In this document: positions 2,690 through 57,649 of the stretch, piece by piece
How the letters are laid out: the number at the start of each line of letters is the position of its first letter
Numbering within the stretch: the first letter of the stretch is position 1
Origin: Heptranchias perlo
Lineage: Eukaryota
Assembly (NCBI RefSeq): GCF_035084215.1
Contig: NC_090340.1
Span: 3,658,001-3,722,000, forward strand
Direction of reading: 5' to 3'
DNA: 64,000 bases
Position numbers and translations under genes: made by a program
The notes under the pieces: generated by a model
The model's input: only the letters and a program-made list of their open reading frames with translations
What the model was told of the DNA's origin: nothing
Databases searched by the model: none

Positions 2690-2914
2690 TTAAATAGATC
2701 CAACATCTACCAGCAAACGTACTACGGTGTCTGCATTTGAAATCTTAGGCTTAGCTTCGCTGTTGGCCAATTGTGCCTCTCTTTCCTGGCGTTCCAACCT
2801 TATTGCAGCGTATTCTGTCCGTTTTGCCTTCTGTTTCTGCATTCTTCTTTTCTCTGAACCAGTCATATCTAGAGTAGCATAATTCCCCTTTTTCTCATCA
2901 GTTCGTTGTATGTT
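2690..2914 (-). CDS. Orphan terminal cytoplasmic exon of a third inhibitory IgSF receptor (may be a pseudogene remnant)
   Basis: Acceptor ttttttgctttcgcag| then NIQRTDEKKGNYATLDMTGSEKRRMQKQKAKRTEYAAIRLERQ...*. Tyr at exon positions 12 and 35 and phase 0, exactly as in the last exon of gene A. TEYAAI fits the ITSM consensus. Upstream exons were not found. Confidence 0.7.
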   Translation of the reverse strand, partial: NIQRTDEKKGNYATLDMTGSEKRRMQKQKAKRTEYAAIRLERQEREAQLANSEAKPKISNADTVVRLLVDVGSI

Positions 2915-11687: not shown

Positions 11688-11700
11688 TCTCTCTCCCTTT
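11688..11700 (-). promoter_or_regulatory. Polypurine tract (AAAGGGAGAGAGA) immediately upstream of the 3' LTR
   Basis: Plus strand tctctctcccttt abuts the LTR start TGTAAG. Confidence 0.8.
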
Positions 11701-11933
11701 GACCCTGAGTGCAACCACTCTGGGTCATTTTTCAACTTACTTCCGCATTTAACCTTTGTCATGGTCTTACCTAGCATCACCTTGGGTTTACATTTTATCA
11801 ATATTATGTTCATATAAACACACATAGACATATATTGCTTCAGCGGGCCCCGTTTGTCAATAAGGACCCACTGAATCAATATGCGCAACATAATTAATTG
11901 CCATAATACACAACATTGAAAAATAATTAATAG

Positions 11934-15720: not shown

Positions 15721-15788
15721 GATCCCTCCACCGGCGAGGCCGAGGATTGTCAACTTGCATGTTGGCAGTGATAATCCGTATTGAACGG

Positions 15789-25655: not shown

Positions 25656-26370
25656 ATAAGTTTCGGTAGAAATGGAACATCTCAAAGCTGAGAGTGAAAT
25701 GGGAAAATGTGTGAATTGTTAAGATGGTCTGGAAGTTGAAGGAGTGAGAGATGCATTTGAAGAGGTTTTACAACGTGAACCGAGAAAGGGACTTCGAACA
25801 ATGGAGGAGAAGGAGAAAACTTTTTAACAGGATAGCCAATACAAGCCTGGTAATTGGTCTTTCCCAAATGAGAAGGTAAATCGGTTTAAAATTGAGTTAA
25901 GTAAACCTTGGATATTGAAAATGGAGTTCATAGATACAGGTTTTAAAACAGGAGAAAAGGGAAAAGGGAAGATTCCGTTTATTCTTCTGTTACAAGCTGG
26001 AGAATTTTTATTTGGATCAGTTTTTTATTGCTTTACTTGTTTTCATTCACTTCGACCACTTACAAAACATTTTTCTTAATGTGGTTACATCGTGAAAACA
26101 CGAATAGGACGCGAAGCTGCAAATTCCAAATTCAGCTGTCCTGGGTACATCTGTATGTGGAATAGTGAGGATTAATTTCAAATGGGATGCGAGCAAAAAG
26201 GAGAGATACCTTGGAAGTTAAGACAGAAATGTTCGCCAGTCTCTCCCATCTTTTGTCTCGACATATTTTGTTGTGCTTGTTTGAAATTTAGTTCTATTGT
26301 TGCATTGTTTCAGTCAACCTTTTTAATTGTTATCAATTTCTTAATTTAAGATCGTTCCCTACAGTGATAG

Positions 26371-28730
26371 ATGGATGCTATATCAGCAGTTATAACTCAA
26401 ACGATTGCCGAGAAACAAAGATCAATCGCTTCTGCGTCCGGAATCCTTGGTCCAGTCGAAGTAAGTTATTCTGCATGTGAAAAACACTTGTTTGCGACGT
26501 TTTGGGGCATTACGCATTTTTATTATATTGTGGGTTTAGAGCCAGAACATCTAATGACCAATCACACTCCAACGGAGTTCTTGTTGGACGGGAGATTAAA
26601 GGACCGGTCACTGTCTCCCGTCAGCCGAGCCCGGTGGACCCTGTTTTTGCAGGTATTAAAGTCCATCAGAATCCAGAACCGCCTCATTTCCCAGGAAGTC
26701 TGATACATTAAGGAGGCCAACTTAAATCATCACAAAGATCCAATAAAATTTGAGTGTTGCCAGACACAAGTGATTTATCAGTAGATGGAACCAGTCGAGT
26801 AGAGAAGGGGGAAAGGAAGACAGGATGTGGTATATACGACCCGGACAAACAAGTAGAATTAGCTATTCGACTGCCTGCACTTATGTCTGCACAGGTAGCC
26901 GAATTGGCAGCTGTAGCATATGTGGTCACACATCCAGTTGTGTTCCCAACTCACTTCACCATACACTCAGGCACAATGTTATGTGTCTAATTCTCTGACG
27001 ACACACCTTCCGATCTGGGAAACGAGAGGCTTTACATAGGCCAATGGGAAGGCATTACCCCTTGCCCCCCTTTTGAAAGTGATTTTTAACAGAGCACGAG
27101 AAGTACCTGGGGAAATACCAGTGTGCAAAGTTAAAACACATACTAAGAATGGGCCTCTATGGGAATGAAATCAGAAAGCAAACGATTAGCTAACAAAGGA
27201 GGAGAGGAGGGAATGGAGTGGGTTCCAGTAGAAATGTTTCCCCTAATGGAAACCAATCAGCCTGAGAAATTGCCCTACACAATCGATTTGAAACAATTAC
27301 AGAAAGATCCTGAAATAAAGGCAGTCATGGTGATGCTGGAAAGAAAGAAATCCAAGTTGAAAATATGCTCATCAGCTCAAGTTAAAGGTGAAAGATGGTA
27401 TCTAGCTGTACGATAAAAAGTGGGTGGTACCACAAAATGAGAACAAGGCTTTTCTTTACCAAGCCCATGGCGCACCCACTTCAGGACATCCCAGTCCACG
27501 GGGAACATTAGAATGGCTCCAACAAGCAGCATGGTGGTCAGGAATGAAAAGCCAGATGGAGCATTAATGTCAAAACTCTTTACCTTGTGTACCACACAAC
27601 CCAGATGTGCATACCAAGACCGCACTGTTGCACCACACTCGGCCGACAGCCGGCCTTTGGACCGATCAACAGATAGATTATATTGGGCCATTTGCCTCTT
27701 CCTCTCGAGATAATCGGTATCTATATGTGGCAGTAGACACATTCTCAGAGTGGGTAGAAGCATTTCCAACACCCAAATCAACAGCATAGGCCACTGCTAA
27801 AATATTGGTGAACCACGTATTCACGAGATGGGGACTCCCAAATTCCATCGACTCGGACCAAGGTAGTCATTTTACGGGTAGGGGAATACAAACTGCTATA
27901 CAGCTGTTAGGAATCAACAAACGATTCCATATTTCACATGATCCTACCTCATCAGGCATGGTGGAGATTGAACCAAGCATCGAAAAACAATACTGAAGGA
28001 GTTAATTGAGCTATCCCACAAAACAAGGGCCCAAGTGCTGCCCTTGGCATCAATGGCAATACGATCCACTGAGCCACGGACCACCAAGGACTTACCCCAT
28101 GAGTTAATGACAGTGAGAGTGATGAGGACCCCTGAACATTTGATGAGCCGCAGTGTCAGGTCTTGACTCAGGAGTGGTACATTAACTAGTTACGTGGTCG
28201 GCTGCAACAGATAATGGTCTTTGCAACCGTTAATAGTGCACGATATAAAAAGACCAATAAAATATATTTTGATATCAAAGTCAAAGGAGTAGAATGGACA
28301 GTCAGTGATAGTCATAGAGTCATAGAGTTATACAGCACGGATAGAGGCCCTTCGGCCCATCGTGTCCGCGCCGGCCATCAGCCCTGTCTACTCTAATCCC
28401 ATATTCCAGCATTTGGTCCGTAGCCTTGTATGCTATGGCATTTCAAGTGCTCATCCAAATGCTTCTTGAATGTTGTGAGGGTTCCTGCCTCCACAACCCT
28501 TTCAGACAGTGAGTTCCAGACTCCAACCACCCTCTGGGTGAAAAAGTTCTTTCTCAAATCCCCTCTAAACCTCCCGTCTAAACATTCCAATCAATCGGGC
28601 AATTTGTGGCTTGCTTTTCTGGACCATATCCCATTGTGGATAAAGCCAGTCCATCTGTGTACAAAGTAGACCTGAAACAGGAAAAAGGAAAATGGATCCA
28701 AGTCAACCAACTAAAAGAGTACAAGGGAAA
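26371..28730 (+). pseudogene. pol: pol remnant: tether/RNase H-like domain, second RNase H and integrase
   Basis: YSACEKHLFATFWGITHF..TNHTP (26371-26703); SVDGTS..GCG..SAQVAELAAV (26754-26990); QIDYIGP..AVDTFSEWVEAFP and [17 protein letters not shown] (27607-27996); SGPYPIVDKASPSVYKV..WIQVNQLK (28606-28730). Confidence 0.85.
28311..28577 (-). mobile_element. Short CR1 3' end inserted in the integrase region
   Basis: Tail tcatagagtcatagag; FFTQRVVGVWNSLSERVVEAGTLTTFKKHLD. Confidence 0.88.
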
Positions 28731-31869: not shown

Positions 31870-32072
31870 ATATGGAGATGCCGATGATGGACTGGGGTGG
31901 ACAAATGTAAGGAATCTTACAACACCAGGTTATAGTCCAACAAATTTATTTTAAAATCACAAGCTTTCGGAGATTATCTCCTTCGTCAGATGAATGAAGG
32001 AGATAATCTCCGAAAGCTTGTGATTTTAAAATAAATTTGTTGGACTATAACCTGGTGTTGTAAGATTCCTTA
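31870..32072. mobile_element. Penelope-type inverted terminal-repeat remnant: perfect 77-bp hairpin with hammerhead core
   Basis: Arms 31908-31984 and 31996-32072 are exact reverse complements with an 11-nt loop. Flanking direct repeat ccttatttatttatg at 31855-31869 and 32068-32082. Confidence 0.8.
31955..31992 (-). ncRNA. Putative minimal hammerhead ribozyme
   Basis: Minus strand reads CUGACGA-a-GGAGAUAAUCUCC-GAAA-GCUU: the conserved CUGANGA and GAAA boxes, stem II and a palindromic AAGCUU stem III region. Confidence 0.6.
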
Positions 32073-33809
32073 TTTATTTATGTAAAACGACCACCAAAGA
32101 GAGTGCAGTCAGTGGGTTAGATGAGAACCAACTGCTATTGTTATAGCCATAGCGCACAAATATTATATGTCAGAGGGCAAAATAAACAGTGAATAATTCG
32201 TCTGATAGGCACATCGGATAAAACGAACATTATTTTAATTGTGAATGAATGAATGATTTTCCTTTTGTAAGGAAGAGCTCCGTACGACTTGTTTCGGAGT
32301 CATTATAAAATTGAGGTCGCAAAGCCAGTCTTTGCGCTCCCTTGGAACGAAAATTTCCTCCGTTCTATAAAGAGCGGGCGAACTGCTCCACCAATTTACC
32401 GTCCGGACGATCAAGGTGAAAATTTACCCCAGACGCCGTTGTTGCATATTACCCGATGTGAATGCACGCGTTCTGTGTACAATTATCATAGCCCGCGAGA
32501 GGGGTTCACACTTTGACCTCCCGGAGAGAGGGTAACCAAACGTCTTGATCCGATACTGCCAGTGCATCGAAGTTGAACTTACTGCCCAGTCCTGATGTTG
32601 GTATTGCCAATCGGACGCCTGTTAATAATAAAACACATTGATTTCAAGGGAAATAAAAATCGTGCAATTTCTGCAACGGGCCGCCAATCCTTTGAAAATG
32701 TCCCCCAGTGGGGGTTATTTCAACCTTACCACAGTGTGTGGAACTGTCGCCGTCAGATGCCCAGTTTTGATTTCAAAGGAAAGTGAAACTAGGTGAGGTG
32801 AAATATCTGACGATTAGGAATGGGAGGCATATTTTATACCCGCCAGATATTATTTTCAATGGAAAACAAAATCGTGCTGGTGTAAAGCGGACGACCGTTG
32901 AAGACCAATTACACCTCCATTTGCCGAGTGATATGTAAAGTTTGGATTTAATTTCGGTAACTCTAGATGACAGCCTAAATGTAACAAACTAAAACTCTTA
33001 GAATATGCTATTGCAACTTGAGTAGCAAATTCTTCAAGAACACAGCAGCCATTTCCCAGTTATGAAATTGTTACTTTTTAATATCAAATGCTGAATGCAA
33101 ACTTTTTGGGTGGTAATGTATAGGTTTTGTTGTTCATGAGACATGATTGATACAGCTGGTTACAGAACTATTAAAAAGAAAAAAAAAGTAAAATTGGACA
33201 AATAACAGAAGCCGCCGAGGTGAGCTTTTGAATAATATCAATATGCTCACGATAGAAAAAAGCAATAGGCTGCATATTACACATAACCGTTCGGCCTAGG
33301 AAACCAAATAACAATCTCCCAAAAATCAACAAGCTCGCAAACTTTCACAACTGCGGGGCAAGTCAAAATCTATCCCATTACGCCTTTATATAATATGCCA
33401 TTATTTGAGGTTCCAAATACATACACATATCTTGGTCAATCGGTGGTATACAATTTCAAATAATGGTTTAGCAAAATAAAATTGGCTTTTTGCACGTTGC
33501 CTTTCACGCTACTATTTTAAATTCGTCCTATTTAAGTATATTTCCTTGCAATCAATTGTCTAATTTCTAAGACTGCCCCGAAGACCGCAGGTACGATCCC
33601 CTGTTTCAATTACATTCAGGGAGTACTATCCATGCAAAGGGAAAAACAGATTGTGGAGAGTAACAAAACGATCATAATTTCCTAAAACTAAAACGGAATA
33701 ATATGGAAATAGTGAACTTCCCAGCTATACGCTGTTCTTCTTATGTTGGGGTAATTAGCAGTAATAGTTCTTGAATTGTAAATTCTCGCAGTTTCAATCC
33801 TCCGATCTC

Positions 33810-33834
33810 TCATGTCCTGTTTCTTTTCGGATCT
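33810..33834 (-). CDS. Gene B exon 5: short cytoplasmic tail (R)DPKRNRT*
   Basis: Acceptor cttctgctttttgtgtttag|; read in phase 2 to follow the TM exon. Confidence 0.6.
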
Positions 33835-36800
33835 CTAAACACAAAAAGCAGAAGATTGTTTAGATTATTTCTAATTATTTGATCACTTGACCACTATCAT
33901 TGGTTCCTGATTTTGTTTTCAACCCAAATGCATTTTTTTAGCGTCTCACTGTGAGTTCCCCCAATTTCTGTCGAAGTTGAAGCAGAAGATCGGGTGAGCT
34001 CCCCGCAGAACATGCTGGCGTTTTATATATAAACGATAAATCAGTGAAGATGCTAATTCGTAGATCTTTAATTTGGCTCAAACAAACTTAGTTTCAAATG
34101 GCTTTGTTACAAATAGCAAATTCTTCACCCGGCTTCGACGCAACTTCGACCAATGCAACAGGGCAACCGCGCATCAATCTATTATTCTGTTCTTTTTCAG
34201 GAACGAAAGTTAGGGAGATGACCCCCAAGTGGGATTCTGCCCTCATGATTATATTTGTTGAACAAAGAACCAGACGATGAACGATGGGTGCATAAATTTG
34301 CGATTAACAACGGGTCTCACTCTAACTTCGGCAGGAGATCTGGGAAAGTCCCAGGTAAATGGCATAACCTGAAAACTGCAATTTACCTGTTCGTCTGGAG
34401 CTTCCCTGGAAGTGATGTCATTTTCTCAGTAATCCTGTTCAATCGATTGGGGCCTGGAATTCCAGGGGTGTTCTCCCGCTTTCCTTCCATACCGTTGATA
34501 GGGAAGCCAAGAAAAAAATGGCTGAAACCGCTGAAATGGTCGTTTGCGCCCTTCAAGTTGCGTTTCCACCTGTCCAATATCGATGTTAGGCGGGACATCG
34601 GTTGATATTTTGGAGTCTTGGATAATAAATGCTTCTCCAGGCACAATTTAGGCGGTAATACTCTTCCTGACGAATGTAATTTCGCGGGTTCTCCCCGACA
34701 TCCCGTGTAACTTTGGCGGTCGATAATTGAGACCTCGGGAAAGCAGATAAAACCTACAATGCATACCAATTCGCCAATGTTTCCGCTGAAGTTAAAGCGG
34801 GAGATTGGGAGAATCAGACAGCAACTCACCTCTTCCTCTATTCCGGTAATTCTATGGAGCTCTTCATCCACTTTTTAAAGGAAATTTGTACAATTTATGA
34901 TAACAGTAGACTGAATTATCGGAGATTCTCCCTATCCGCCGCTGTAACTTCGACAAAAAACTTTTACCAGCGGTTTAGCGGGAGAACCCTGACGGAAGAT
35001 TATCCCTGATAAGCGGGACTGTCCCGCAGATATTCACTCAATTTTATTATAGATAATTTTATATTAGAATAATAATTGTTGGGAATACTGAATGAAATCT
35101 TACCTTTTGAAACAAATCGTTTTGCGGTAATCCACAATGATGATTGCCAGCATCTGAATTAGGTAAATGGCCGATATATATCGGGATATCAAAACAATTC
35201 GGAAAAAATTATCAGTACCTGCAAGATGTACATAAAACAGAAGTGCGGTGCTTTATATTCCACTAAGAAACGTCACAATAATAGTACATAAATAAACGAA
35301 TGAATGAATAAATGCATGGATGAATAAATACGTGAACGAATGAATGAATGAATTAATTATACAGAGGAAGGGCGCAAATTGCTGTTTCAGTCCTGTAGTT
35401 TTGCTAACTTGATTATTTTTATTGATATATCTATTTTGCGACGACAACTTTCACTGTATTTGCTTTTTAGAAATGTAACAACATGATCATCACAATATCA
35501 GGCTTTAGCTCCGTTACTCTAAATATTGAGTTGTATTTTTCACAAGAGCGTTTTCCCCTTTAATAATTATGTGGTAATATTTCAGCAAAATACGAAATGA
35601 TGAAATGCCAACAGGAGAAATGTTTATATTTTAAGAGTGTTCAATGAATAAAGAATTGTTTAGACAGAATCCGATCACACGTTTTTCTGCTATATCCAGT
35701 ATGTAATTCAGATCCAAGTTACTGCGAAACCTGGTGGAGTAGTGGCTTATGTGTTGTACTTAAGTTCGATCTGAACATTGTAAGTTGGCTGGGCTTGGCT
35801 TTGCAATATCTCAATAGAGCATTGGAACAAATTGCATTTTCTTTTCATGATATAAACCAGCGATTTAATATCCCAATATTATTGATATTGAAACTAAACA
35901 ATACTCCGTTAGAAATCGATGCAAAACAAAGTTAGGCTGAAAGGGCGCCTGTGAATTTTGTCATAGGTCTATGAATAATTAGGCTGATTTCAATTTTACC
36001 TCGAAGGCAATGAAGGAAAATAAAATGTCTGATTCTGTGTCCAGAGTTCATAGTCTTGAAGCAGCGCTGAATACGAGATCCAGAACTTTCCGAATTTCCA
36101 TCCTTTTAAAATAAAGGGACGGAGGATCATGCACCGCCTATTCATAGTTTCTGGCCAGCGCTGCCTGTCATCCCTGCTCCGCTCCAGGACTGATGGCCCG
36201 CCGAAAAAGCCCTAAAGGGGTAGATTTTGAGCTGTCTCTTAAGCGAATGACCGAGTCCAAAGCCTCATTACTAAAACGGCCGCAGACGGCTCAATATTTT
36301 CAGTCCAATGATTTCAGTTGTGAGAAGTTTCTGCGCGATTATTCAATAAAAGTTTCCGATCCGACCTTCATACAGGAATATCTACCCAAAGTTTACATTA
36401 TGAAAATAAGTCTGATACGTTCAATGCCTCATATCCTGTTCTATAAATAAAATATTTTTTGCGGGATATGGGCGTCGCTGGGAAGGCCCACGTTTATCGC
36501 CCAACCCTTGAGTGACTCAGAATGCTTTCTGACAGGTAAATATCCCTAACACCAATTTTGGCACATCATCAGGTGAAGATGATTCTGAACCTATCAGATT
36601 ACTACTATTTTTCCAAACTGTGTATTTGAGTAGAGAATGTGGCACTATTTACAAATGTTTTTCTCCTTCTAATGATCGTCTCGTCATATCATGTTCTATA
36701 AATCAGAATAGTGGGATAAAATGATCCCAGGCGCCCTGTTTGTCTGAGGACAGATTCTACTGCAACCAGTCAACTGAGGGCGAATGTAGCCTGAGTTTGC

Positions 36801-39800
36801 TTTTGCCGATGCTGCTGTTGGGCCAATGTGGCTCTTACTCGCCCGGCACTCTCATGCTCAACGACAATGGTGCATCAGTAGCCGGACAGCAGCGTTTCAA
36901 TAAGTATTCGGCTTTCTGCACTTTTGCAAGCTAGTTTCAAAATGATCTAATTTCACATTTTATGCACTCAGGACTCAAGGCCTTGAAAACAGAGAGTGAA
37001 TTGCGCCTGCTCGCGCTTTGCAATTATCTTCGCCTTCTACCTCGCTTCTTTTCAGGATTATGATTAGTATTAGCTCCCTGGGGTGCATTTTCAACGTGCT
37101 GCCGGGTCGTAAAAATGGCGTTGTGCATCAGCGGATATATTGAAGCCTCAGGTGGTTTCTCTATCGGGCGGCCGACCAGGAACGCCAATTTTACACCCGG
37201 GCCGCTAGTTAAAAACCTACCCATTTATTTATATTGTATGTCACTCCACCTACATCTTAGTGAAGTTATTTTCTTACCTGCGCACGGCAAGTGAAAGGAG
37301 CTTTAAAATGATCCCAACTGAACTTTCGATGCGATCAGTCTTGTTTTTTTTTACCTTTCTTGTTTGTTAGACATTTCACCATTGCATATTTCTTTGAATA
37401 GGAAGTTTGTTCCATTTTTTTTCATTTAAACCTTGCCGCTTGATTCCACCAAACCAACAAACCTGCGACCGCGAGCCGCTACGCCTCACCGCAGCACGAA
37501 GCACAGCAGCAAATGCAAAATGTCATGCTTTTCCGCCAAGAGGACATGCAAGTGCCACTTTAAGAAGCTTTTAAGTCTATTTCTCCTACTGCATAGAAAA
37601 GCACGCTTTCCGTTTGTGACTCTGAACACACTGAGAGCGGACCAGCTGCATTTTAATGATGGGAGAGCGGAAAACCGATGGAAGTGAGCTTTGTGGCCGA
37701 ACAGCGCAAAATGTTACGGCCAAAATATGTAACATCGCTACGTTACTGGGGGCAAAATTTCCGGACCGAGCTTCTATCCTTTACCCTCTTGTTCAAAAGC
37801 TACCTATATCTGTGACACACTGTTGAACTCTGCCGCGTTAACGATTTAATTTTCTCCAGAACTGGGTAACTCCATTTTCCCTATGGATAAACATGCCCTC
37901 TGGCGATCATCCCTTACCGTGAGTGTCCCCGGGGCCCTGAATTCTTTGAGCAGTGATCCAACCTGTCCTTCCCCACCGCCGTCCTCTGCCTCGATGGACT
38001 TAATCATCCCTTGAACAACTTCTCTTTCAACTCCACTCAATTCTTCCCTATCAAGGGGTTAAGATGTGAATATACCTGGATCCCAGTTATGCCTGTATTT
38101 TTTTCAGGCTATGTGGAAATCATTGTTTCAGTCCTACTCTGCTTACATATTTCATCTCTGATTATTTTCATCCCTCCTCTGCATTCACTTATGGTAAAGG
38201 ACTTTGCACAGATCGTCGCTTACAAACCTATTGACTCTAAATACTGCATGAATTGTGTCTTTCCAAGCCTGCTTCATGTGAAGGCTCCATCGCCTTCTCC
38301 CACTTTATCTTTGTCAGATCTTCTCTAATCACACAACTTGCCATGCCAGAACAACCAATTCTTCCACACTACGACGATGAACAGGATCCTTTACTGTTTC
38401 TGTCCTATCTCCCAGACTTCAATGGAAATAAAAATCGGGGGATGGAAAACGGGCTGCTTATTGTCCAATACCTGTTTCAGACCATTGCACAAAGTCAAAG
38501 TTACCGCCAGTGTCTTTCAAACTGCAGCCATGCGGTTCGAAAGTTCATTTTAGTAACTTCAAAGGCATGATATGCTGTATTTTCTCTAAGGCAGGGGATG
38601 CTTGAGATGTGCTCTGTCCGTGTCCAAACGTATGGAAGGTGGATTGATGTTTGGGAACTCGTTGTCAGAATATAGCGTAGATTGCTTTCTGAGTCTGTGA
38701 TGTTGATTTGTGACTTCATATTATCAGGAAAGGAGCCATTCCAATTTAGCTTTTTAATTAAAATATGTTGCATTTCCACTCTGTTTGTGTTCGTTGGTTT
38801 CAATTCAATGTTACAGGAATAAATCCAGAACTATTGCAACATAGGATGATTCGACACTGCAGTTACTGGTCTGTAACAACAGCGGCAGTTCGAGTTCCAG
38901 ACAGGCAACGTCATCTTTAGATTGCTGGAACTGTAAGGGATAAGATTCCCGCGAGCTTTTCGTGCTTGCCGGCATAATGCCGGTGCAAAAATCATGAAAC
39001 GGTGAAATTTAGATTATTTCATACTTTTGTTTAATGCAAAATACACTCCAATGTATTGGTTCACTTTGCGGTTAACTTTTTTTTCCTTTGTTCGTCAATG
39101 AAGTTTAAAATGTTTTTCAAATTCTTCTCTCAATCCGCCAGATCCATATTCACTCTCTGATATCTTTTAAAGTCTTTCTGCTGCCTCACTCATGTTTCAT
39201 ACCGTCTAGCAGTTTTAGTTAAGCACTTTATAGTAACATTAGTCCCTCGTTGCAACTGGATTGCATGTAGATTCTATCCATCTTCCCTTCTCCCTCTCCT
39301 TTTCAAACCAAGTCGGTTCACCTTTTAATCTTCAGTTTTGATGAACGAATACTCACCGATACACCGTGACCTCTACTTTCTCTCCACAGATGTTGTCTGT
39401 CCTGTTGTGTATTGATTTTCTTCTTATTTCAGATTTAGAGCTTTAGCCCTTTTTGATTAGATTTTAATTTGCGTCTGTATGGTAAGTGATTCGACTGGAC
39501 CAGTCGCTGGGCAAGGTCTACCCGACTCCCGAATCAAATTCAAATAACATGAGCTTTATTATAGAAAGTCAGAGCAAGTCTGAAAGGTTTATTATTTATT
39601 CACGGCTTTCCCATAGATAAGTTCTACCTTTCTCACAAAACATTCTCAATCAGGCTGCCTTCAGCTGGATATGGATCTGGCGGATTGAGAGCAGAATTTG
39701 AAAAACATTTTAAATTTCATTGACGAACAAAGGAAAAAAAAGTTAACTGCAAAGGGAATCAGTACATTGGAATGTATTTTGCATTAAACAAAAGTATGAA

Positions 39801-42800
39801 ATAATCTAAATTTCACCGTTTTATGGTTTTTGCACCGGCATTATGCCGGCAAGCACGAAAAGCTCGCGGGAATCTTACCCATTACAGTTCCAGCAATCTA
39901 AAGATGACGTTGCCTGTCTGGAACTCGAACTGTCGCTGTTGTTACAGACCAGTAACTGCAGTGTCGAATCATCCTATGTTGCAATAGTTCTGGATTTATT
40001 CCTGTAACATTGAATTGAAATAAATAAATACCTGCAGGTTATCATTATTCCGGCATCTTACCAGGGTTCCAAATAGTTTCCAAATAAACAGCTAATCTCG
40101 GAGTCTGGAAGGCGGTGTGAGATACCAAACAAGTAAAATAGGTCCATCTCTGGAGTGGCTGTGTCTCTTGCAGAATACTGGAAGCTTCATACAGTTCCGC
40201 TGAGTTCAGCTGCTTCGTGGTTTTTGCCATGGTTACAATGTTCCTTTTATTGTTATACCAGCTGAGAGTGAGAGTCTCCTGGTTAAAGCCAAGCGCTTCG
40301 CATACGATGATCAGATAAATATTTGAATTTCCGCCGGGCGTTTTGGAGACAATCGTCGCTGGAGCTGGCGGAGCTATAGAGGGGTACAGGTAAAGCAAAA
40401 CAAAACACGTCGTTTTAAATTTAGAAGATTATTTACTTTAGTATTGCATTTCCCCAAATTCAAATCAATTAAGATGATTCATAATCAGCATGTGTTTGTT
40501 GCATTTCATTGAAATGAAAATAATACTATTGTACATATTTGCCGGACATCTGCTACTATTATAAATGCTCAAGAATCAGCTGTATTTATAATGCGTTTTC
40601 TCACGTCTCTCACAAGCATAACAATAATCTCACATACAGGGAATTACCTTCAATTGCAGTATTTAATGGTTGTAATGTTGACACAACGGGGCCATGCTTC
40701 GACCAGTAAATCCCACAAATAGCAACGAACAGCTCATCCTTTTCTATTGTTACGGATTGACTGGGGAATTCTGGATAAAATAACAGGAAATTGCTTGCAT
40801 TCATTCCAATAATGCAGTGGGATTTTTGGATTCCGCAAAGAAAAGCTCACATACTTGTTGGGATACCTGTCCCCAAATACAGCAGTATTCCCTCACTTCT
40901 AAACTCAAGCGTCAGACTAGATTGATCCTTAAATCCTGCAATATAGCTGGAATTCAAAGCCTGGGAATGCACAGCAGGGCTCCGATCTCCCCGCCCCCCC
41001 CCCCCCCCCCGCGAAACGGCAATAGATCCGCTCGAACCTGGAAAACGGCATATACGCTGTTCATTCAACATTTACGCCGATATTCTGCCGAATTTAGAGC
41101 AGATCATGATCCCAGGAGAAAGTCAATCCTCACTGCAGCTCCCCCTCCCCGAAAAAAAACTACTTTCTGATTTAGAGCAAAAGTGCAATTAACTTTGCTA
41201 AAATAAGACCCTGAGCTGGATATGTGATTTCCCCACCAACTTTCCACCAGATATTCTGAATTAGATGCGGACTAACAGTATGATTAACGCTCTAAATAAA
41301 ACAAAATAAATATCCCGCTCCATCTCACTTTGCGTTGCAATCAGCGCTATGTTTGCAAAAAAATTCAATTTTGAACCTAAGCCGGGGTCCAGTTACCAAT
41401 TAGGGCAGTTTTGAGGAAAAGTATATAAGGACATAATCATAATGTTTATTTTTAAAAGTCAGATTATTAACACAAATAGGCGTCTGTTACTTTCACTGAC
41501 TTCAATTGCGGAACGAAACTTAAAAACAACGGTGATTACAATCCAAAAACAGATGATTTATGTGGTTGCATCCTTAGAGTCTGAAACTGCTTTATAAATT
41601 AAATTCCAATTTGATTTATGAACATTTTTAATATAGCTGTTGCTGGAACGTTATTTTACATGGACTCCCAGATATATTGATGGGAACTGTTCCCACATCA
41701 TTGGTTGGTATTAATTTTAGAATTGTTTTATGTCTTTGTACTCGACAATACATTTTGAAACGATCAAACTTTCAGCCTTTGGATTTGTGAGAATGTACCC
41801 AATGTGATCTATTTTTACAATCACAACATTACATGCATTCCCTACGGATACAGGTCATTCCACTCAAGTTGGTAATAAAGCATCGACAATTTATTTCATA
41901 ATTTCTGTAATATTACCTGAGCTTGAGTAACAATATATATTGTTTCAAAATAAACATGAGGTACAATTCGCGCTGATTTTAACTTGCAATTTGTGCGTTG
42001 AAGGTATTTAACGTAGATTTTCATTGTGAATATTCAGACGTAATATCACGAATCCATGATAATAGATACAAGAAAGGTACAGGTGCCATTTTTAGGTATT
42101 GAAATTATTTGTCACACAATTCGTACCAATTTACGGAAAACGATGTACACAAAAACACCGATTGGACCATCCAGTCTGTTTCACACAGTTGTAATGCCTT
42201 GTGCATCACAATATATACACGCCACCCTACCCGGTGTCGCGTTATTTCCTGGGAGAGGCAAAGAAACAGATAAAAAACAAAGATAATTCGGGAAAATATC
42301 TCGCATATTCCTCTCCGACGATTGAAATAAGTCCAGGACATTACTCCGGGCCTGATTCCAACGACCCCATCCCCTGCAATATCACTTACTGTGGACAACA
42401 AGATTTGATCCAGTTCCGTTTCTGATCGTATTTCTCTGGTGTTTGTCTCCGCAGTAATAAATCCCAGCAAGCTGGAGACGGACATCAAGGAGCTGGAGAG
42501 AACCCTGCCCTATCCTAATTAAAAATAGTTTCTTCCTGTCTGAGTTTGTTTGCAGAAATACGGTTTCGCCGAATCTCCACCAGTAAACATTCACTTGTGA
42601 ATTAGCTGGAAAAGGAGTGAACGCACAAGCGAAGGTAATGTTTGCACCGGCCATAACAATCTTGCTTTGGGGACTTTGTGACAATTGAAACACGGCATTG
42701 CCATCAACTGTGTAAGAAAAAAAAAACACATGTAAACTGCAACTAACCAAGTCAAACCTGATGGAAAATGGTTGATAGATAGAGATAGACAGTCGGGTAG

Positions 42801-42902
42801 CAACAGACCCCAAGATAGATATAAAAAGAGGAGATTACGGAAATAACCTGTGAAGATCATCTCCAGAATTACAATGTACTGAAGCACAGCGCGAACAAAC
42901 AT
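33810..42902 (-). CDS. Gene B (whole span): non-rearranging VJ-C1 IgSF receptor, activating type, 5 exons, 274 aa
   Basis: join(complement 42902-42848, 42707-42390, 40373-40062, 35218-35104, 33834-33810) = 825 nt, open frame, all GT-AG, intron phases 1,1,1,2. Confidence 0.8.
35104..35218 (-). CDS. Gene B exon 4: transmembrane exon containing Arg
   Basis: acatcttgcag|GTDNFFRIVLISRYISAIYLIQMLAIIIVDYRKTICFK|gtaaga; 115 nt versus 114 nt for the gene A TM exon; shared G-x-D-N start and C-(F)-K end. Confidence 0.8.
37880..38330 (+). mobile_element. Degenerate Penelope-like RT fragment
   Basis: LNNFSFNSTQFFPIKG...GYVE resembles the Penelope RT motif region. Confidence 0.55.
38798..40020. repeat. 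Inverted duplication: 352-bp arms (38798-39149 and 39669-40020), ~520-bp spacer
   Basis: Arms are reverse complements with about 12 mismatches by hand count (~96% identity). Confidence 0.95.
40062..40373 (-). CDS. Gene B exon 3: C1-set Ig domain
   Basis: cccctctatag|TPPAPATIVSK..LIIVCEALGFNQETLTLSWYNN..LYEASSILQ..FTCLVSHTAFQTP..NP|gtaaga; C-x-V-x-H motif. Confidence 0.9.
42390..42707 (-). CDS. Gene B exon 2: V domain with J-like G strand in the same exon
   Basis: ttcttacacag|VDGNAVFQLSQSP..GANITFAC..VYWWR..SLQLLDV..AGIYYC..NGTGSNLVVH|gtaagt. Confidence 0.92.
42848..42902 (-). CDS. Gene B exon 1: signal peptide MFVRAVLQYIVILEMIFT
   Basis: ATG at 42902; hydrophobic; ends ACAG|gttatt in phase 1; resembles the gene A leader end (ILVLEITYT). 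Confidence 0.75.
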
Positions 42903-50184: not shown

Positions 50185-50358
50185 TTATGTGATTTTTGTT
50201 TCGGTGTAGATGGTCTTTGCTGTTCCTCTTTGGGCTTCTATTGGTAACTGCGCATAGACTGAACTATTGACCTTTCGTTTAGGCTTTTCTTTTTTCTTGG
50301 ATTCAGCCAATTCCAGCGCAGCGTATGTCAGATTGTTCTCTGCTGTCCCTTGCTTTGT
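50185..50358 (-). CDS. Gene A exon 7: terminal cytoplasmic exon with ITIMs
   Basis: cgttttacag|TKQGTAENNLTYAALELAESKKKEKPKRKVNSSVYAQLPIEAQRGTAKTIYTETKIT*; LTYAAL and SVYAQL fit (I/V/L/S)xYxx(L/V). Confidence 0.88.
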   Translation of the reverse strand, partial: TKQGTAENNLTYAALELAESKKKEKPKRKVNSSVYAQLPIEAQRGTAKTIYTETKIT

Positions 50359-53300
50359 CTGTAAAACGATCGTTAGGGAATACCATCAGTACATGGCCAG
50401 TGTTATGAGTCAAAGTAACAATCACAAGTAAGAAAGCCAACACGGAATGCGATTTAAATATACCAGATTAGCAAAACAATATAGTGACTCCGCTACCAGG
50501 GTGACCCGTTTTTTATGTTGCCTACCTGGGCATACACAGTCCTCTCCTCTTGATACTTGGCTCTTGCAGTTTTCATTGACCTGGTCAAATTTAATACAGC
50601 GTAAGGCGCTGTCTCATTCGCCGATCCCTGCACAGATCGCAAAGTAATGCATATTATATAGTTTATTCATTACATTTGTGACATTGTAGCTTATTGATTA
50701 CTCATTGAACCCAACGGTCAGTAGTACTAAATCCGGAGATGGAAAGTGAAACATTAAAGCAAGTTTTTACTCTTTCAATAATATAATAGGATATAATTAA
50801 GGCACCATATATAATAATTTACTCTCACGATGTGGACTACGGTCATATTATAACTAAAGTTGTTACACAAGTTACAATTTAGTAATTGCTACGTGTGATA
50901 GCACATAGGCCTAATGAAACCTAAATACTTTGAGGCGCATGTACCCGCGAGTTTATAGTTTACTTGTATGTTGTTGCTAATAACTACATCAGCATTATAG
51001 TATGTACATCATGTCTTTCGGAAACGATTTCAAAATGTAGCAAACTAGATTTAATACATGTAAGAGATAAATTGAATTTAGACTTTTCTCGCTGAAATAT
51101 GAAAGAAACAATAATTCTGTATTTTAAATGGTCTGATGGTTTCTATTCAGTAGCGAAATAACGAATTTCAGTCCAGCGGATTAATCGTACGAAGAAAGTA
51201 TTTCATGCTTAACCTCACTACCCATTTTCACTTTACACGTCAAACGCGGTAGAATGAATGATAAGAACCTACCGGAACTTTGGGGTGCTGTGGTCGCTCC
51301 ATGACATCCCTTGTTCCTGGTAATGAATGGCATTGGAGATTTCCTCATCAATTATTTGATATATCATTCTCCATGATTCCAAATCCATTTCAGGCAGGCT
51401 TAATGGACAGTCCAACTTTATGCTCAGTAACACAACCTAAAACTTCCTCGATACCTAAATCTATTCAATGTTCACTCTCAAATACCCATCCCCCGATTTC
51501 GTGAAATTACTGGGTCTTAATCGAATCTGATCCCACGGGGTCTAGAGCCTTCCTATTTTGACGCGTAATAAACTTAATGTTTGAGCCTAGAGGATGAGTC
51601 TTATCAGTTTACTTGACGGGAAAACGCACCACATCAGGTCCAGCCGTCCACTCACTTCCACACAGGTAATATACCTGCAGAAATAGGTCACAGCACTTTG
51701 ATCCGAAACAATACCCATTGTCCTATCCTCTGTTAAGAGGTAAAAGGCGATTCGACTGCCTCATCGCTTTGGGACAGATTATTAAATTCAGCGCATAAAA
51801 TCTGCTGACCCATCTCCCTGGCTTCTATCACCAGTAGCGCACCACGCCATCCATTTACACTAGAGAAGAAAGAACTCATATTTAAACAGCGCCCTCCACT
51901 GCGCTAAAACGTCCCAAACAGATTCACAGCCAATGAAGTGCTTTTGAAGTGCAGTCACTGTTGTAATGCAGGAAACGCGAGAGCTGATTAGGTACAGCAA
52001 GTTTCCACACACAGCAATGTGATCAATAGGGAATTAAACTGTTTTACTGATGTGGATTGGGGGGTAAATGTTTGGCAGGATACCGAGGGACCTTTCTTCT
52101 TCTTTCGTAAATAGTGTCATGAGATTTATTACTTCAACCTCATAGAGCAAACGGAGTCTCGGGTTAATGTCTCATCCGAAAGCAGTCCGTCAGTGTTGCA
52201 CTGGGGAGTGGGCCTAGTTAATGTGTTCATGTCTCTGAAGAGGAACTTGAACCCACGGCCTCGGACTATGAGATGAGAGTGCTACCGCTGAGCCAAGGCT
52301 GAAAGCAATTTATTTTATCGCCTCCCGAGGCATCTTCACTTGATCAAGAATATACTGAAGGACACGTGGAACTGATGTTAACTGGATTCTTTCCTACCTT
52401 TGCACTTGATCAATGGACATTGCTTCCCAATGATTATCACGAGAAATACAACTAAGATGCCAACTCCTGCGGATCCATAGACTTGTATGTACCATAATAC
52501 ATTGTCACCTCCTGCAAAATAAATGTCACTTATAACATTTCAAGTTGTACATTGTGACAAAGTGTTCTGCAGTCCCACAGATCAATATCTCTTACCAACC
52601 CTATGAACAGCTATTTCAATGTGTTGGTGTCCCACAGCATGAGGAGACAATTAAAACATTTAATGAGTCATTTTCTCCGTTCTTTAAATGGCAATTTTAT
52701 TAAAAATTCAGAGTTTTTAGTTACCTCCATTCGGTCTCTGTGCATTGCGGAATACGCTGTGTTCACAATGACACGGATAACAATTGGCAATTCTAATTTT
52801 AGGTGTTGTTTGGACGAAGCGACAGTTTATTTCAGGCATGTATGTGCAGTCATATTAACCTTCTTATATTTCCTTTTCCATTTTCAGTCGTTACCTTTAT
52901 TTAAACTATTTAAGCGAACTTTTCTATTGCGTGAAGCGTAACAGTTTACCACAACCCACCAACTCCCCCCACCCCCCCACCCCCCACACCCCCCACCGAC
53001 CAAACATTATTCAAGACGATTATGGCTGGTTTAAAATTCTTATATCACTTGTTACATTATCCCAGTTAAAAATGAGTTCGATATGGAGGGTGATTCTAGA
53101 TCGGTCGCCAATTGTTAGTGAACCAGTTGGGCTGATGAGAAATTCGGCCAGCTTCATGGTTACTTTTACTGAAAGCAGCATTTTGTTTCCAGATTTTTCT
53201 TTCAACTGCCGTCCAATTCTCAAACTACCATGCCGAGATCATTAGTCCATGCTCTGGATTTCTGTTCCAGTAACATAACAATTATACTACCGTACCTCTG

Positions 53301-56300
53301 CTCTCCATTGAATAAAGTACAGTACAAAGACCCATTCGCCAACAGGCCTGGAACTGTCCCATTCATCCATGTCCTTGTTCCTCTGAAGAGTTCTAACCCA
53401 TCAATGCACTTTTAACGGACTGTGGACGGAATTGCGCAAATGCCACATACCGTCCATGACTTTAACTATCAGTCTTGGCTCAGTGGCAGCACTCTCGCCT
53501 CTGAGTCGGAAAGTCATGAGTTGAAGTCCTGCTCCAGAGCCGTCTGAACATCATTGGACCTATATCGTCGCTGGGTCATAATGCTCGAAACTCTACCTTA
53601 CAGCATTGTGGAAGCAGTTTCACCACATGGACTCCAGCGGTTCAAGAAGAAGGCCCACCCCCACATTCTCAACGGTAACTAGGGATTGGCGATAAATCAA
53701 GGCCTTGCCAGAGACGCCAATATCCCGAGAATGAATTGAAAAAATCTAAGCTGGAACTTCCATTTAGTTAGAAGATGTTGTTTGCATTTGTGAGAATTGG
53801 TTCTTACCTCCAGTACTGGTAGAAAAGAATCGGAAGTCGGCTGCCGTTTGGACGGTGAGGTGAGATACCTGGCAGGTAAAAATAGTCCCACTCTCCACAG
53901 AGTCTGCCTCTTCCAAAAAGCTGGACACTTCATAGAGACCTCTTGCATTCAGCTGTTTGACTGTGTTTATGCCGGTGTCAATGTTCACACCATCCTTGTA
54001 CCAAGTAATATTGATATTATCTGGGTAAAACTCCGCAGTTTTACACACAACAATCAGAGAAGCAGATGTGTTCCTTTCAGCCTCATTGGCGGCAATATGC
54101 AGTGGGGTTGGGGGAACTGTATAGCAAGTTACAGAAGAGGTTAGTACCTACTAGGATCTTTCGGAACGTCGGAAGTTATTCTATTTCTACTAGATCATAG
54201 TCATTGCGATATTAATAATTTATACACATCAAATGGCATGTTCATTTATGGAAACGTTGGGTGAATTTTCAACTTTCTGTCTGGGTGGAATGCAGGCGAA
54301 GCGGATCAATCACTCGGCGTCGAGTTGAAAATCTACCCCATTAACTTACAGAATACAATTTCTAACGAGACACTGGCAAGCTAAGCAATGATACCTTATA
54401 TATCAATGCTCGAAAAAATATAGATGGACGATAGAAATGTATGGAGGGTCATGAAATCACTGTAACAAATACATCTCTCAACATAACTCGCAATTAAGAA
54501 CAAGTAAAAAGGGGTTCAATTGTTAATATGGTTTGCAGTAGTTCGCATTTTGACGTTCTAACTTTTTAATTTTAAAGAATGATCGATTCACGATCAAATT
54601 GCTTTAATACTGTATATATTAAAAAAACAGATTGAAAACCATTCATCTCAACTGGAATATTTTGAAAAGTTGTCAGAAGTTTAGTAACTTCCGAGGCAGT
54701 TTTAGAACGTTAGAGAGGATTTTGAAGTAGTTATTGGGAACAGTTTTGGAAAGGTTAAGTTGAAATACAGCTAAAGGTAGTTGAACAAGAGAGGTAAAAG
54801 AAGAACATAAGCTGGAAGAAAGGGAAAGCTGTACATAATAGACAAACAGGAAAGGTGCGGGGGACTCGTCGTAGAGGGACCCAATGATTAAACCAGAATG
54901 CTGCAGAGTGAGAGATATAACGCTTTGAATTCAACAGTTAACTTGTCACCTAAGCATACATGTTATTCGTCATGTTCTCAGTCAAGAGTCAGGTTTAATA
55001 GTGAACGTCTACCAGTCGTCCTCCCTAAAATACATTCTACTCAGTTAAACCCAGCAAATGATGTTCCATCGTCGTAGTGAAATGAGATTTATTGCGCTCC
55101 GTGTGTTGATTTAAATATTGTTTATCTATGCTAATATCAATAATGTATTTGTAACGATATTAATGTATCAGTAATGTTGAACCTCATATTCGTTACAAGT
55201 TGCATCTTAGTAGAAGCAATTAAATAAAATCATCAATGGCAAATATGTGTCACGATCAGTCCTTGGTAGCATTATATTTAAATGTCACTTTACTGAACGT
55301 TATATTGCAGTGCTGTCCATTCCAAAATGTTAATTAATTCGGAACGTCTGTACATGAAGCAAGGCATTGAATAAGAATTTAAATGTAACTTCCAAAAGAA
55401 ACAATGCAAACTCGTGGATGCCTCACACGTGGATCATGATAAAATATTAAAAAGCAGCCGGTACCGTTTTTTATTTTGTTCGCTTTCCAAGTTTGTGAAA
55501 TAATTTCAGGTACAAATTCCACTTACCGTGGATAAGAAGTTTTGATCCAGTTCCATTAGCAATCCGACCACCCGGATATTTCACTCCGCAGTGATAAACT
55601 CCAGAGTCCTCAGCACTGACATTCAGGAACTGAAGACAGGCCTCACCTTTCTTCAAATGAATAAATCGTTTTCTGCTGTTTGAACCTAACTTTAGAAACT
55701 CATTTTCGCCGAGTTTCCACCAGTAAACACTCACATTTGAATTATCTTGAAAAAGAGGGAACTCACATTGAAAAGTAATGTTTCCACCTGCGATCACCTG
55801 AGCACTTTCAGGGGCTTGGAACGCTCTGATCTGCGCATCTGCAACAGCTGTGAGAAAACAAATGCAGCAACAATTATATATATCGCACACACACTGCTTG
55901 CGGACAATAATTATCAATCTTTGGTAGTAAGAAGCATTTGCAGATGATTCAATGTAATCTTTGAGGCAACAATGTATGATATGACAAGCCTTAGCTGTGC
56001 TGTCTGTAATTAGTTGATTTTACTCAGTGAAATCCGTAGCATTTATTGTGCCTTATTTTCCAATTTCTATTTTCAAAGTAACCTGATATGTAGCGCAGAC
56101 CACACCTGTAAATGTAAGTTGTACATGCCTTCTCTGACAGATGTTGAAGGTCAGATGGATCAAACATGGAGCAGATCAACTGAGATTTGGCTGATACAAA
56201 GCAGGGATTAGGTTCTTGAGGTAACTCCGGGACGAAAGGACTTCATTGAAAGATTTTTCTTGTATTATGTTCATGTGCCCTGGCAATACATACGATCACC

Positions 56301-57649
56301 ATATTCACTTTGACAATCGTCTCGTGGCACTGATCATAAATTATGGACTATAACCCTCACGTCTTTCTCCCACGAAATATCCTTGAGCATACCAGCCGGC
56401 ATCGTGCATAAATGGGGTTGTCTCTATCCAAGTGCATGTCGCTATATGCGTCCATATTAAAATATATCTACCAGACACGATTCATTATTTCATTGAATCC
56501 AATTTGGTCTGCAGTCGAATTTAATTTTATCTAAGTTCCTTATATCCGCACATATGTTCGTGCAAACTATATATTTGCATATAGCTTCCATTATGCCTCT
56601 GCCCAAATAGTGGATACATAATGCAATGGTCCTTGCATTAAGCCATTAATAACTCTCTTCTGTGCCCTGAATGTAACAACCCAATCAAAATCCGCTTGCT
56701 GATCCTCCAAGATCCAACCTGCGTTAGTAGCCTTTTATGCAGAATTCTAGCAAACTATTTTAAAAAGTTTAAATTCACAATATCAAAATGGCTTCTATCA
56801 CCTTCCAAATTTGTAAATTATTGGAAAAATGCAAGCAAGTTGTTGAGACAGAACCTTCTTTTTCAGAAGACATGCCTAGATTCCCTAACAAACCATTCTC
56901 TTTTAATGTGATAGTACAGCGCATATCTAATGATCCTATAGTTTCGAGGTTCTCACTTTGTGCGATTTGACATAGAGGTACGACATGGCCCCTCACGGAT
57001 CCATGGGAACAATCCCACACAGGAAAGAACTGTTAGGTATGTGTGCAAATGGCTAATATAACATCATCCACATTTATTGGAACACACTCGGGTGAATGCC
57101 TTCAGGGCCAGCATAGCGATCAGATTTACCACACTAATTGCAGCAAGGACTGCATCCGTATGCAGATCAACAGGTTCAATTTTAACATCAGCCTCATGTT
57201 TTATTATTGGTAAAACGGCATCAGTGTCAGCAGGGAAGACAAATGCAAAATAACCTTTTAAAACCCCTGTCAGATGCTAAGACCCTGCTGAATCTGCCCA
57301 GGCGATCGTTCAATTGCCTTGTCCATTCTTTGATGAGCCTATGATGTTTAACATAGCTGAAAAAGAACTTGCTTTGCTACCACGACTTTTCACTATATTT
57401 TTACTAGTGTCCTTGTGGCTACTCATTCAGCAACTTGTATTTTCCCTAATGCCCGAACCTCGGGGCTTACATAATCTTGGATTTGTGAACGAAAAAAAAA
57501 ACAATAATAACAAGAAACAACTAAAAAACATACCATAAAACACAAGAGATGAATAGAAATGTAGAACACAGGGAAATACCTGTATATGTAATCTCCAAGA
57601 CCAATATCCAGGGAAGTATAAACATGTTTAGAAATAGAATTGACTGCAT
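50185..57649 (-). CDS. Gene A (whole span): non-rearranging VJ-C1 IgSF receptor, inhibitory type, 7 exons, 377 aa
   Basis: join(complement 57649-57580, 55847-55527, 54116-53808, 52511-52398, 51316-51273, 50627-50526, 50358-50185) = 1134 nt, open frame, all GT-AG, intron phases 1,1,1,1,0,0. Confidence 0.85.
50526..50627 (-). CDS. Gene A exon 6: cytoplasmic exon with ITIM/ITSM-like motifs
   Basis: tctgtgcag|GSANETAPYAVLNLTRSMKTARAKYQEERTVYAQ|gtaggc; phase 0-0. Confidence 0.82.
51273..51316 (-). CDS. Gene A exon 5: short juxtamembrane cytoplasmic exon
   Basis: cattcattaccag|GTRDVMERPQHPKVP|gtaggt; the only open phase 1->0 candidate I found between the TM exon and exon 6. Confidence 0.65.
51865..52303 (-). 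mobile_element. tRNA-derived Deu-type SINE (intronic)
   Basis: Minus-strand head tcagccttggctcagcggtagcactc...gggttcaagttcc (A and B boxes), conserved core and tail ending in tatgagttctttcttct. Confidence 0.75.
52398..52511 (-). CDS. Gene A exon 4: transmembrane exon, uncharged
   Basis: tttattttgcag|GGDNVLWYIQVYGSAGVGILVVFLVIIIGKQCPLIKCK|gtagga; phase 1-1. Confidence 0.88.
53469..53745 (+). mobile_element. SINE tRNA head followed by a LINE 3' tail fragment
   Basis: tcagtcttggctcagtggcagcactc..gttgaagtcc, then ttcaagaagaaggcccacc..gggattggcgataaat as at 25550-25610. Confidence 0.6.
53808..54116 (-). CDS. Gene A exon 3: C1-set Ig domain
   Basis: cttgctatacag|VPPTPLHIAA..LIVVCKTAEFYPDNINITWYKDG..GLYEVSSFL..FTCQVSHLTVQ..STG|gtaaga; FYP and CxVxH are C1 hallmarks. 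Confidence 0.93.
54258..54340. mobile_element. Small MITE-like element with terminal inverted repeats
   Basis: gggtgaattttcaact ... agttgaaaatctaccc; similar termini occur elsewhere (36217, ~37220). Confidence 0.45.
55527..55847 (-). CDS. Gene A exon 2: V domain with J-like G strand in the same exon
   Basis: gttttctcacag|AVADAQIRAFQAP..GGNITFQC..VYWWK..LQFLNVSAEDSGVYHC..NGTGSKLLIH|gtaagt; DxGxYxC motif. Confidence 0.95.
56330..57480 (-). mobile_element. Highly degenerate CR1 LINE in intron 1 of gene A
   Basis: Colinear similarity with the CR1 RT region at 4900-6100 (e.g. tctagcaaactatttttaaaaagt..ttcacaatatc). Confidence 0.5.
57580..57649 (-). CDS. Gene A exon 1: signal peptide MQSILFLNMFILPWILVLEITYT
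   Basis: ATG at 57649; hydrophobic; ends ACAG|gtattt in phase 1. Confidence 0.8.

What the first reader, a model, noticed from the sequence alone, without database searches (positions are those of the whole stretch)
33810..35218. Gene B has an outer-leaflet TM arginine and almost no tail
Seen: IVLISRYISAIYLIQMLAIIIV followed by DYRKTICFKRDPKRNRT*, with no ITIM or ITAM. Established: an Arg near the extracellular end of the TM is how NKp30, NKp46, FcalphaRI, GPVI and activating LILRs engage FcR-gamma/CD3-zeta, whereas DAP12 partners use a central Lys. Seen: this TM exon is 1 nt longer than that of gene A and ends in phase 2 rather than 1. Inference: the phase change uncouples it from ITIM exons and may record how an activating form arose.
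Basis: partly seen in the sequence, partly recalled or inferred. Interest (0 to 1): 0.7.

Follow-up and report, generated by a model that had tools for sequence, protein, structure and literature searches.

The report
Shark activating receptor with swapped anchor
This shark immune-receptor gene carries an old arginine-bearing membrane anchor, shared with relatives as distant as chimaeras, that was likely grafted onto the outer part of an 'off-switch' receptor to make an 'on-switch', but this particular copy is likely decaying.

Summary
Gene B (minus strand) is leader–VJ–C1–TM, with the Arg helix and a 115-nt phase 1→2 TM exon against 114 nt, phase 1→1, in gene A.

The interpretation needs revising. 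Phase 2 marks a whole class of TM exons (R-x16-D/E-H): 5 of 5 Arg exons with a called donor in this genome end in phase 2, and the motif is in 9 of 81 family proteins, including a chimaera's. On the ectodomain tree 8 activating members need 8 label changes (AU p=1.8e-5), so the anchor was likely swapped repeatedly. Gene B is sister to an ITIM receptor (75% V, 69% C1), keeps that gene's intron up to about 130 nt before its uncharged TM exon, and has a stranded ITIM-type exon 31 kb downstream.

Gene B looks degraded. It has the weakest TM core of its class and 11 of 45 conserved columns changed. A sister Arg gene is spliced with no indel listed. Adaptor binding is untested. The scan found this family and the swap idea before on other DNA.

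The parts
42848..42902 (-). Gene B leader exon (55 nt, phase 1)
   Evidence: predicted, not covered by a listed contig piece
42390..42707 (-). Germline-joined VJ-type Ig exon (G-x-G J-like motif); 75% identical to ITIM paralogue P0001; the Asp before the second Cys is Leu
   Evidence: spliced in contig
40648..40770 (-). Extra 123-nt in-frame exon (41 aa) between V and C1, frameshifted in the 5.29-Mb paralogue; likely cryptic
40062..40373 (-). C1-set exon; 69% identical to P0001; family-invariant Pro changed to Gln
   Evidence: spliced on to the TM exon
37253..37571 (-). Intron stretch collinear with the P0001 intron, ending about 130 nt before P0001's uncharged TM exon; 5' limit of the inferred cassette swap
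35104..35218 (-). Arg-class TM exon (R-x16-D), 115 nt, phase 1 to 2
34387..34733 (-). Extra 347-nt exon used in RNA; in the genomic frame it adds a 47-aa extension with YYRL-x8-YPRL and a stop about 200 nt before the next junction
33208..33834 (-). Terminal exon and 3' UTR; phase-2 reading RDPKRNRT* (stop 33812-33810)
2690..2914 (-). Stranded P0001-type terminal tyrosine-motif exon (NYATL, TEYAAI), phase-0 acceptor, open; also found downstream of the B copies at 4.49 and 5.29 Mb
50185..57649 (-). Gene A: inhibitory-type paralogue, leader-V-C1-TM(114 nt)-linker(51316-51273)-two tyrosine-motif exons; matches P0035 almost residue for residue

Best explanation
Gene B is a spliced VJ-C1 receptor gene of a large cartilaginous-fish family, and its arginine-bearing membrane exon is an old module that was likely grafted onto the ectodomain of an inhibitory gene; the intact protein would signal through an FcR-gamma or CD3-zeta-type adaptor, but this copy is likely decaying. 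Shown: exon anatomy, class-wide R-x16-D/E spacing and phase-2 end, ectodomain sister to ITIM gene P0001, collinear intron and stranded ITIM-type exon, splicing. Inferred: replacement of the uncharged TM and linker exons between about 37250 and 35420, the Arg-Asp pairing with the adaptor, activating function, relaxed selection.
For: (1) Motif in 9 of 81 TM-bearing family proteins (8 Arg, 1 Gln; tails 7-61 aa, none with two tyrosine motifs), including Callorhinchus P0024 and Heterodontus P0019; 3 of the 9 were in the profile used. (2) Phase 2 in 5 of 5 Arg exons with a called donor; phase 1 in 9 of 11 uncharged exons. (3) Ectodomain tree of 49 rows: 8 activating rows need 8 changes, at least 7 forced by starred branches, shuffled mean 7.6; one clade rejected, p-AU 1.75e-5; gene B sister to P0001 (99/93) inside a 100/100 clade whose 5 members with a clear TM are uncharged with tyrosine-motif tails. 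(4) Collinear non-coding homology to the P0001 locus at V, C1, intron 37571-37253 and the last exon, with none found at P0001's TM exon and only a non-significant hit (E 5.5) beside its linker. (5) Sister Arg gene P0032 is spliced leader-V-C1-TM-tail in run X1 with no indel listed in the TM exon. (6) Adaptor exon with TM Asp at C11:52321824. (7) Decay: 11 of 45 conserved columns changed, tied highest of 44 sequences; more unique changes than P0001 with two of three outgroups (p 0.0007, 0.03; third 0.30); core hydropathy 2.34, and 2.01 in the duplicate, against 2.9-3.5 in 9 database members; frameshifted expressed allele and cryptic exons. (8) Mechanism known for NKp46, NKp30 and LRC receptors (PMC6514059, PMC6557307; passages).
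Against: The NxxR motif of proven FcR-gamma partners is absent (L-I-S-R). An Arg near the TM start also occurs in some tyrosine-motif members (P0021, P0025, P0090), so an Arg alone is not diagnostic. The stranded exon has dS 1.07 to P0001 against 0.18 (V) and 0.38 (C1), so it may come from a separate, deleted gene (32 synonymous sites only). Scatter on the tree could come from ectodomain gene conversion rather than TM grafting; the tree is unrooted and used LG+G4 without mixture. Both genomic copies keep an open 274-aa frame, pairwise dN/dS to P0001 is below 1 (V 0.69, C1 0.47), and fast change is also expected of pathogen-driven activating receptors. RNA evidence is contigs from one sample, which drop rare isoforms and alleles.
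Confidence: 0.6

Rival explanations
1. Gene B is a fully working, fast-evolving activating receptor (274 aa, 17-aa tail), and the frameshifted RNA is one null allele, as is common among paired receptors.
For: Open frame and intact splice sites in both genomic copies; the 33834 acceptor is kept in all four copies; the RNA allele matches neither genomic copy, so other alleles exist.
Against: Direct TM-to-33834 joint not seen; loss of hallmark Asp and Pro and a marginal TM core; no protein identical to its V or C1 among proteins of 182-185 aa and longer (weak).
Confidence: 0.25
2. One reading: a one-base gain at the TM exon end of a gene-A-like inhibitory gene shifted the phase and created gene B.
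For: A and B TM exons align without gaps over 37 codons and differ by one base in length; P0001's exon is also 114 nt.
Against: B's exon aligns better with other Arg exons (z about 6, and 19.6 for the 2.90-Mb copy) than with A or P0001 (z 2.8); the class exists in chimaera; A is not B's sister. Only a version dated to the birth of the class survives.
Confidence: 0.07
3. Gene B now works through its extra exons: either as a secreted decoy (the +1 allele stays open for about 160 residues to the 33810 stop) or as a receptor with its own ITAM-like tail (genomic frame plus the 347-nt exon).
For: Both extra exons are spliced at canonical sites; the 123-nt exon is in frame; YYRL-x8-YPRL follows the TM in frame, and such a pattern occurs about 0.005 times per 48 aa in these loci (33 in 307,960 six-frame positions).
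Against: Found after the fact among several frames; residue -3 is Gln, not D/E; stops break both frames in the 5.29- and 2.90-Mb copies, and the acceptor is lost in the latter; the stop lies about 200 nt before the next junction, a likely decay trigger (established knowledge).
Confidence: 0.08

Closest known systems
FcR-gamma-coupled LRC receptors with the NxxR TM (NKp46, GPVI, FcalphaRI, OSCAR, activating LILR; Xenopus XFL TM1)
   Same: Arg near the outer end of the TM, acidic residue at the inner end, little or no tail, one TM exon type reused with many ectodomains and intermingled with ITIM genes (PMC6557307, PMC2413239; passages)
   Different: No Asn at -3; ectodomain is VJ plus C1; the TM exon usually splices in phase 2 to a separate small last exon, whereas XFL TM1 and its tail share one exon
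SIRP family (SIRP-alpha / SIRP-beta1)
   Same: Joined VJ-type domain (listed for SIRP in PMC11599192), C1 domain, inhibitory members with paired tyrosine motifs resembling SIRP-alpha (recalled), activating partners
   Different: One C1 rather than two, and Arg near the outer face rather than SIRP-beta1's central Lys with DAP12 (both recalled); no SEP-domain gene found on C18
NKp30 / NCR3
   Same: Non-rearranging VJ domain and TM Arg coupling to CD3-zeta/FcR-gamma (PMC6514059)
   Different: NKp30 has one IgV domain and no C1; linkage to the MHC not shown (MHC class I hits lie on small contigs, none on C18)
PRARP / VJ-C1 non-rearranging genes and UrIg
   Same: VJ-C1 architecture like an antigen-receptor chain; best PDB sequence hit of P0032 is UrIg2, E 1.8e-19
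   Different: About 90 V matches, 89 on C18, with paired signalling ends; UrIg2 has nine C1 domains. The PRARP paper was seen only as a reference title

Membership tests
FcR-gamma/CD3-zeta-coupled Arg-TM activating receptors | Arg near the N-terminal (outer) end of the TM | tested here: met
   residue 6 of the 22-residue stretch; conserved in 8 of 9 class proteins
FcR-gamma/CD3-zeta-coupled Arg-TM activating receptors | Short tail without ITIM/ITAM | tested here: inconclusive
   true for the modelled 17-aa tail and for P0032; the only gene B contig uses a further exon
FcR-gamma/CD3-zeta-coupled Arg-TM activating receptors | Arg-dependent association with the adaptor | not testable with these tools
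   needs co-expression; an adaptor exon with TM Asp exists
LRC-type NxxR TM subtype | NxxR motif | tested here: not met
   LISR in gene B; no Asn at -3 in the class members listed
LRC-type NxxR TM subtype | Acidic residue at the TM C-end | tested here: met
   Asp/Glu 17 residues after the Arg; feature from PMC6557307
Paired receptors (functional kind) | Close ectodomain relative with opposite signalling end | tested here: met
   P0001: 75% V, 69% C1, tyrosine-motif tail; sister on tree 99/93
Paired receptors (functional kind) | Shared ligand and opposite signals | not testable with these tools
   no ligand known
SIRP | V-C1-C1 ectodomain (recalled) | tested here: not met
   one V and one C1 exon
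SIRP | Synteny with the mammalian SIRP cluster (NSFL1C marker, recalled) | tested here: inconclusive
   SEP-domain genes on C3 and C22, not C18; one marker only
NCR3/NKp30 | Single IgV ectodomain | tested here: not met
   a C1 exon is spliced in
NCR3/NKp30 | MHC linkage | tested here: inconclusive
   0 of 43 MHC class I hits on C18, but all lie on small contigs
PRARP | Orthology by phylogeny or synteny | not tested
   no PRARP sequence was in hand

The most novel reading that the evidence does not exclude
The R-x16-D/E-H exon is a portable activating module older than the shark-chimaera split, the cartilaginous-fish forerunner of the FcR-gamma-coupling TM of tetrapod LRC, FCRL and SLAM receptors, grafted at least seven times onto antigen-receptor-like VJ-C1 ectodomains. 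Gene B preserves the scar of one graft and, through a newly exonised intron piece, may be gaining an ITAM-like tail of its own.
Probability: 0.15. Interest if true: 0.72.

Novelty: new member of a known kind. Interest (0 to 1): 0.4.

Why it matters
Arg-TM activating partners of ITIM receptors are a known design, and so is their making by recombination. What is useful here is a roughly 90-member VJ-C1 paired family in cartilaginous fish, for which my searches found no description, with a definable activating TM signature that lets members be classified from sequence. It would date adaptor-coupled paired receptors with antigen-receptor-like ectodomains to early jawed vertebrates. For bench work, P0032 is a better test subject than gene B.

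Tried and rejected
Complex prediction of the gene B TM with two copies of the C11 adaptor TM: no answer (score 0.07, mark 0.34); neither for nor against.

No run is on record as RNA; X1 is taken as RNA only because of its canonical splice joints. X2 and X3 do not cover gene B's TM exon.

Alternative inhibitory TM exon between gene B and the stranded exon: none found by profile or nhmmer search of the window.

Idea that the 2.93-Mb gene uses both ITIM exons and the Arg exon at 2.904 Mb: rejected. It has its own Arg exon at 2929387, and the 2.90-2.91-Mb pieces look like a deleted older copy of the A-B block.

Assembly error as the cause of the six-A run: unlikely, since both copies and two paralogues have the in-frame length; raw reads were not available.

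A second adaptor hit (C1:111764533) has a stop soon after and was not counted.

Atlas search gave only generic Ig clusters.

Papers not held: shark NCR3 (PMC8273117), B7/NKp30 evolution (PMC3709836), primordial immune complex (PMC6761025). Any of them may mention this family.

The Hessa hydrophobicity values were recalled and are not relied on.

Full report
Observation. The peptide lies on the minus strand at 35198. Gene B is leader 42902-42848, VJ 42707-42390, C1 40373-40062 and TM 35218-35104 (115 nt, phase 1 to 2). Joined to the acceptor at 33834 it gives 274 aa ending DYRKTICFKRDPKRNRT. Gene A has a 114-nt phase 1 to 1 TM exon, a 44-nt linker and two tyrosine-motif exons.

Setting. Gene B's V exon has 90 matches in the genome, 89 on C18, nearly all in two clusters near 2.7-6.0 and 14.5-15.6 Mb (a lower bound that includes broken copies and a near-identical duplicated block). 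P0001, which its source names as a Heptranchias perlo protein, matches C18:5.417-5.431 Mb exactly, so the genome is likely that shark. Named relatives come from sharks, rays and a chimaera (31 hits). P0001 has an uncharged TM and two tyrosine motifs and is gene B's closest relative (V 75%, C1 69%).

The Arg exon is a class. Of 175 stored proteins, 81 were at most 500 aa and had a C1 motif followed by a hydrophobic segment. Nine of the 81 share R/Q-x16-[DE]-H (8 Arg, 1 Gln), with tails of 7-61 aa and none with two tyrosine motifs; three of the nine were in the profile. They include Callorhinchus P0024 and Heterodontus P0019. In this genome, five Arg exons with a called donor end in phase 2 (115 nt in gene B, its duplicate, the 2.904-Mb copy and the P0032 gene; 112 nt at 2.863 Mb). 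One further copy has lost its donor and three are degraded with Lys for Arg. Nine of 11 uncharged TM exons examined end in phase 1 (105-117 nt); one lacked that donor and one was not called. Against the reading: a few tyrosine-motif members also have an Arg near the TM start, and A and B exons are colinear over 37 codons, so an ancient one-base shift at the origin of the class stays possible.

How gene B arose. Gene B is sister to P0001 within a 100/100 clade whose five members with a clear TM are uncharged with tyrosine-motif tails; three other members have no clear TM. Non-coding homology to the P0001 locus covers V, C1, an intron piece at 37571-37253 that ends about 130 nt before P0001's TM exon, and the region of the last exon at 3071-2230. 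The intron piece includes a short dispersed repeat, but the genome BLAST found full-length matches only in the three B copies; the P0001 match came from nhmmer. P0001's TM and linker exons have no counterpart. A P0001-type last exon lies 32-35 kb downstream of the TM exon in the B copies at 3.69, 4.49 and 5.29 Mb. The simplest reading, inferred, is replacement of the TM and linker by an Arg cassette. Caveat: the stranded exon's dS (1.07) exceeds that of V and C1 (0.18, 0.38), so conversion of the 5' exons or a separate deleted gene are alternatives.

RNA. Three runs of one sample were laid as contigs. X1 shows V spliced to an extra 123-nt exon, then C1, then TM; and TM spliced to an extra 347-nt exon, then 33834. 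No direct TM-to-33834 joint was listed. Both contigs touching the TM exon carry one more A at 35203-35208, which removes the helix. This allele matches the duplicate copy at five of the six listed sites (the sixth, 33336, was shown only in X2) and the window copy elsewhere, so it is a third haplotype. In the genomic frame the 347-nt exon would add YYRL-x8-YPRL (about 0.005 expected per 48 aa), but the frame is broken in two paralogues, misses D/E at -3 of the consensus given in PMC5112662 (passages), and ends well before the last junction. The sister gene P0032 is spliced leader-V-C1-TM-tail in X1 with no indel listed in the TM exon, and also has a TM-skipped form.

State of gene B. It deviates at 11 of 45 conserved columns, tied for most among 44 sequences (P0001: 4; P0032: 2), including the Asp before the second V cysteine and an invariant C1 proline. 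Relative-rate counts favour faster change with two of three outgroups. Its 16-residue core has hydropathy 2.34, against 2.9-3.5 in nine database members. No identical V or C1 was found among longer database proteins (weak). Against decay: both genomic copies are open and dN/dS is below 1.

Mechanism and known kin. TM Arg pairing with the adaptor Asp is described for NKp46 and NKp30 (PMC6514059) and for LRC receptors, whose TM also has acidic residues at the inner end and often does not need FcR-gamma for surface display (PMC6557307; passages). Xenopus XFLs reuse one such TM with many ectodomains (PMC2413239; passages). A zeta/FcR-gamma-family exon is at C11; by recall it looks more like CD3-zeta. 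Gene B works like these receptors by inference but fails NxxR, NKp30 (extra C1) and SIRP (single C1) membership features. Nine literature searches (listings) and passages of PMC12227049, PMC10751288 and PMC11599192 gave no description of this family. Three key papers were not held, and no supplements were read.

Earlier notes. After forming this reading I looked up the scan's notes: none near the window, none by sequence, and eight listed elsewhere in this genome describing the same family, one with the same swap idea. They are unchecked and not independent evidence.

Verdict. Interest 0.4.

Noticed in passing
G000:C18 about 3.49-4.01 Mb vs 4.29-4.85 Mb (includes this window): Tandem near-identical duplication, offset about 800 kb, 99.2-99.4% over the 20 kb compared; either a recent segmental duplication or both haplotypes in one assembly.
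   Followed up: partly
window 35218 and L051:1500-1530 (C49): An X1 contig joins an exon of an unrelated gene on C49, at its exact donor, to gene B's TM acceptor: chimeric RNA, trans-splicing or an assembly artefact.
   Followed up: partly
window 2914-2690: Stranded tyrosine-motif exon is open in three copies with dN/dS 0.22 to P0001; it may have been in use until recently or still be.
   Followed up: partly
L039-L040 (C18:2.9018-2.9137 Mb): Older copy (74-85%) of the gene A-gene B block with two large deletions, leaving only A's ITIM exons and B's TM and tail exons.
   Followed up: partly
L055, L056, L057: Degraded copies of the P0032 TM exon with Lys for the Arg, His for the Asp and an Arg inside the core.
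   Followed up: no
L042:2480-7702: P0032 gene makes a TM-skipped, likely secreted isoform (P0018) in RNA.
   Followed up: partly
window 33441-33506: 66-nt non-canonical skip in the X1 contig but not in X2's: likely an allelic deletion in the 3' UTR, so at least two alleles are expressed.
   Followed up: no
window about 10900-17300 and 25800-27800: Fragmented ORFs that look like retroelement gag/protease/integrase pieces, plus many LINE-like fragments, fill the gap between gene B and the stranded exon.
   Followed up: no
window 31930-32070: Long perfect inverted repeat, visible in the sequence and as a self match.
   Followed up: no
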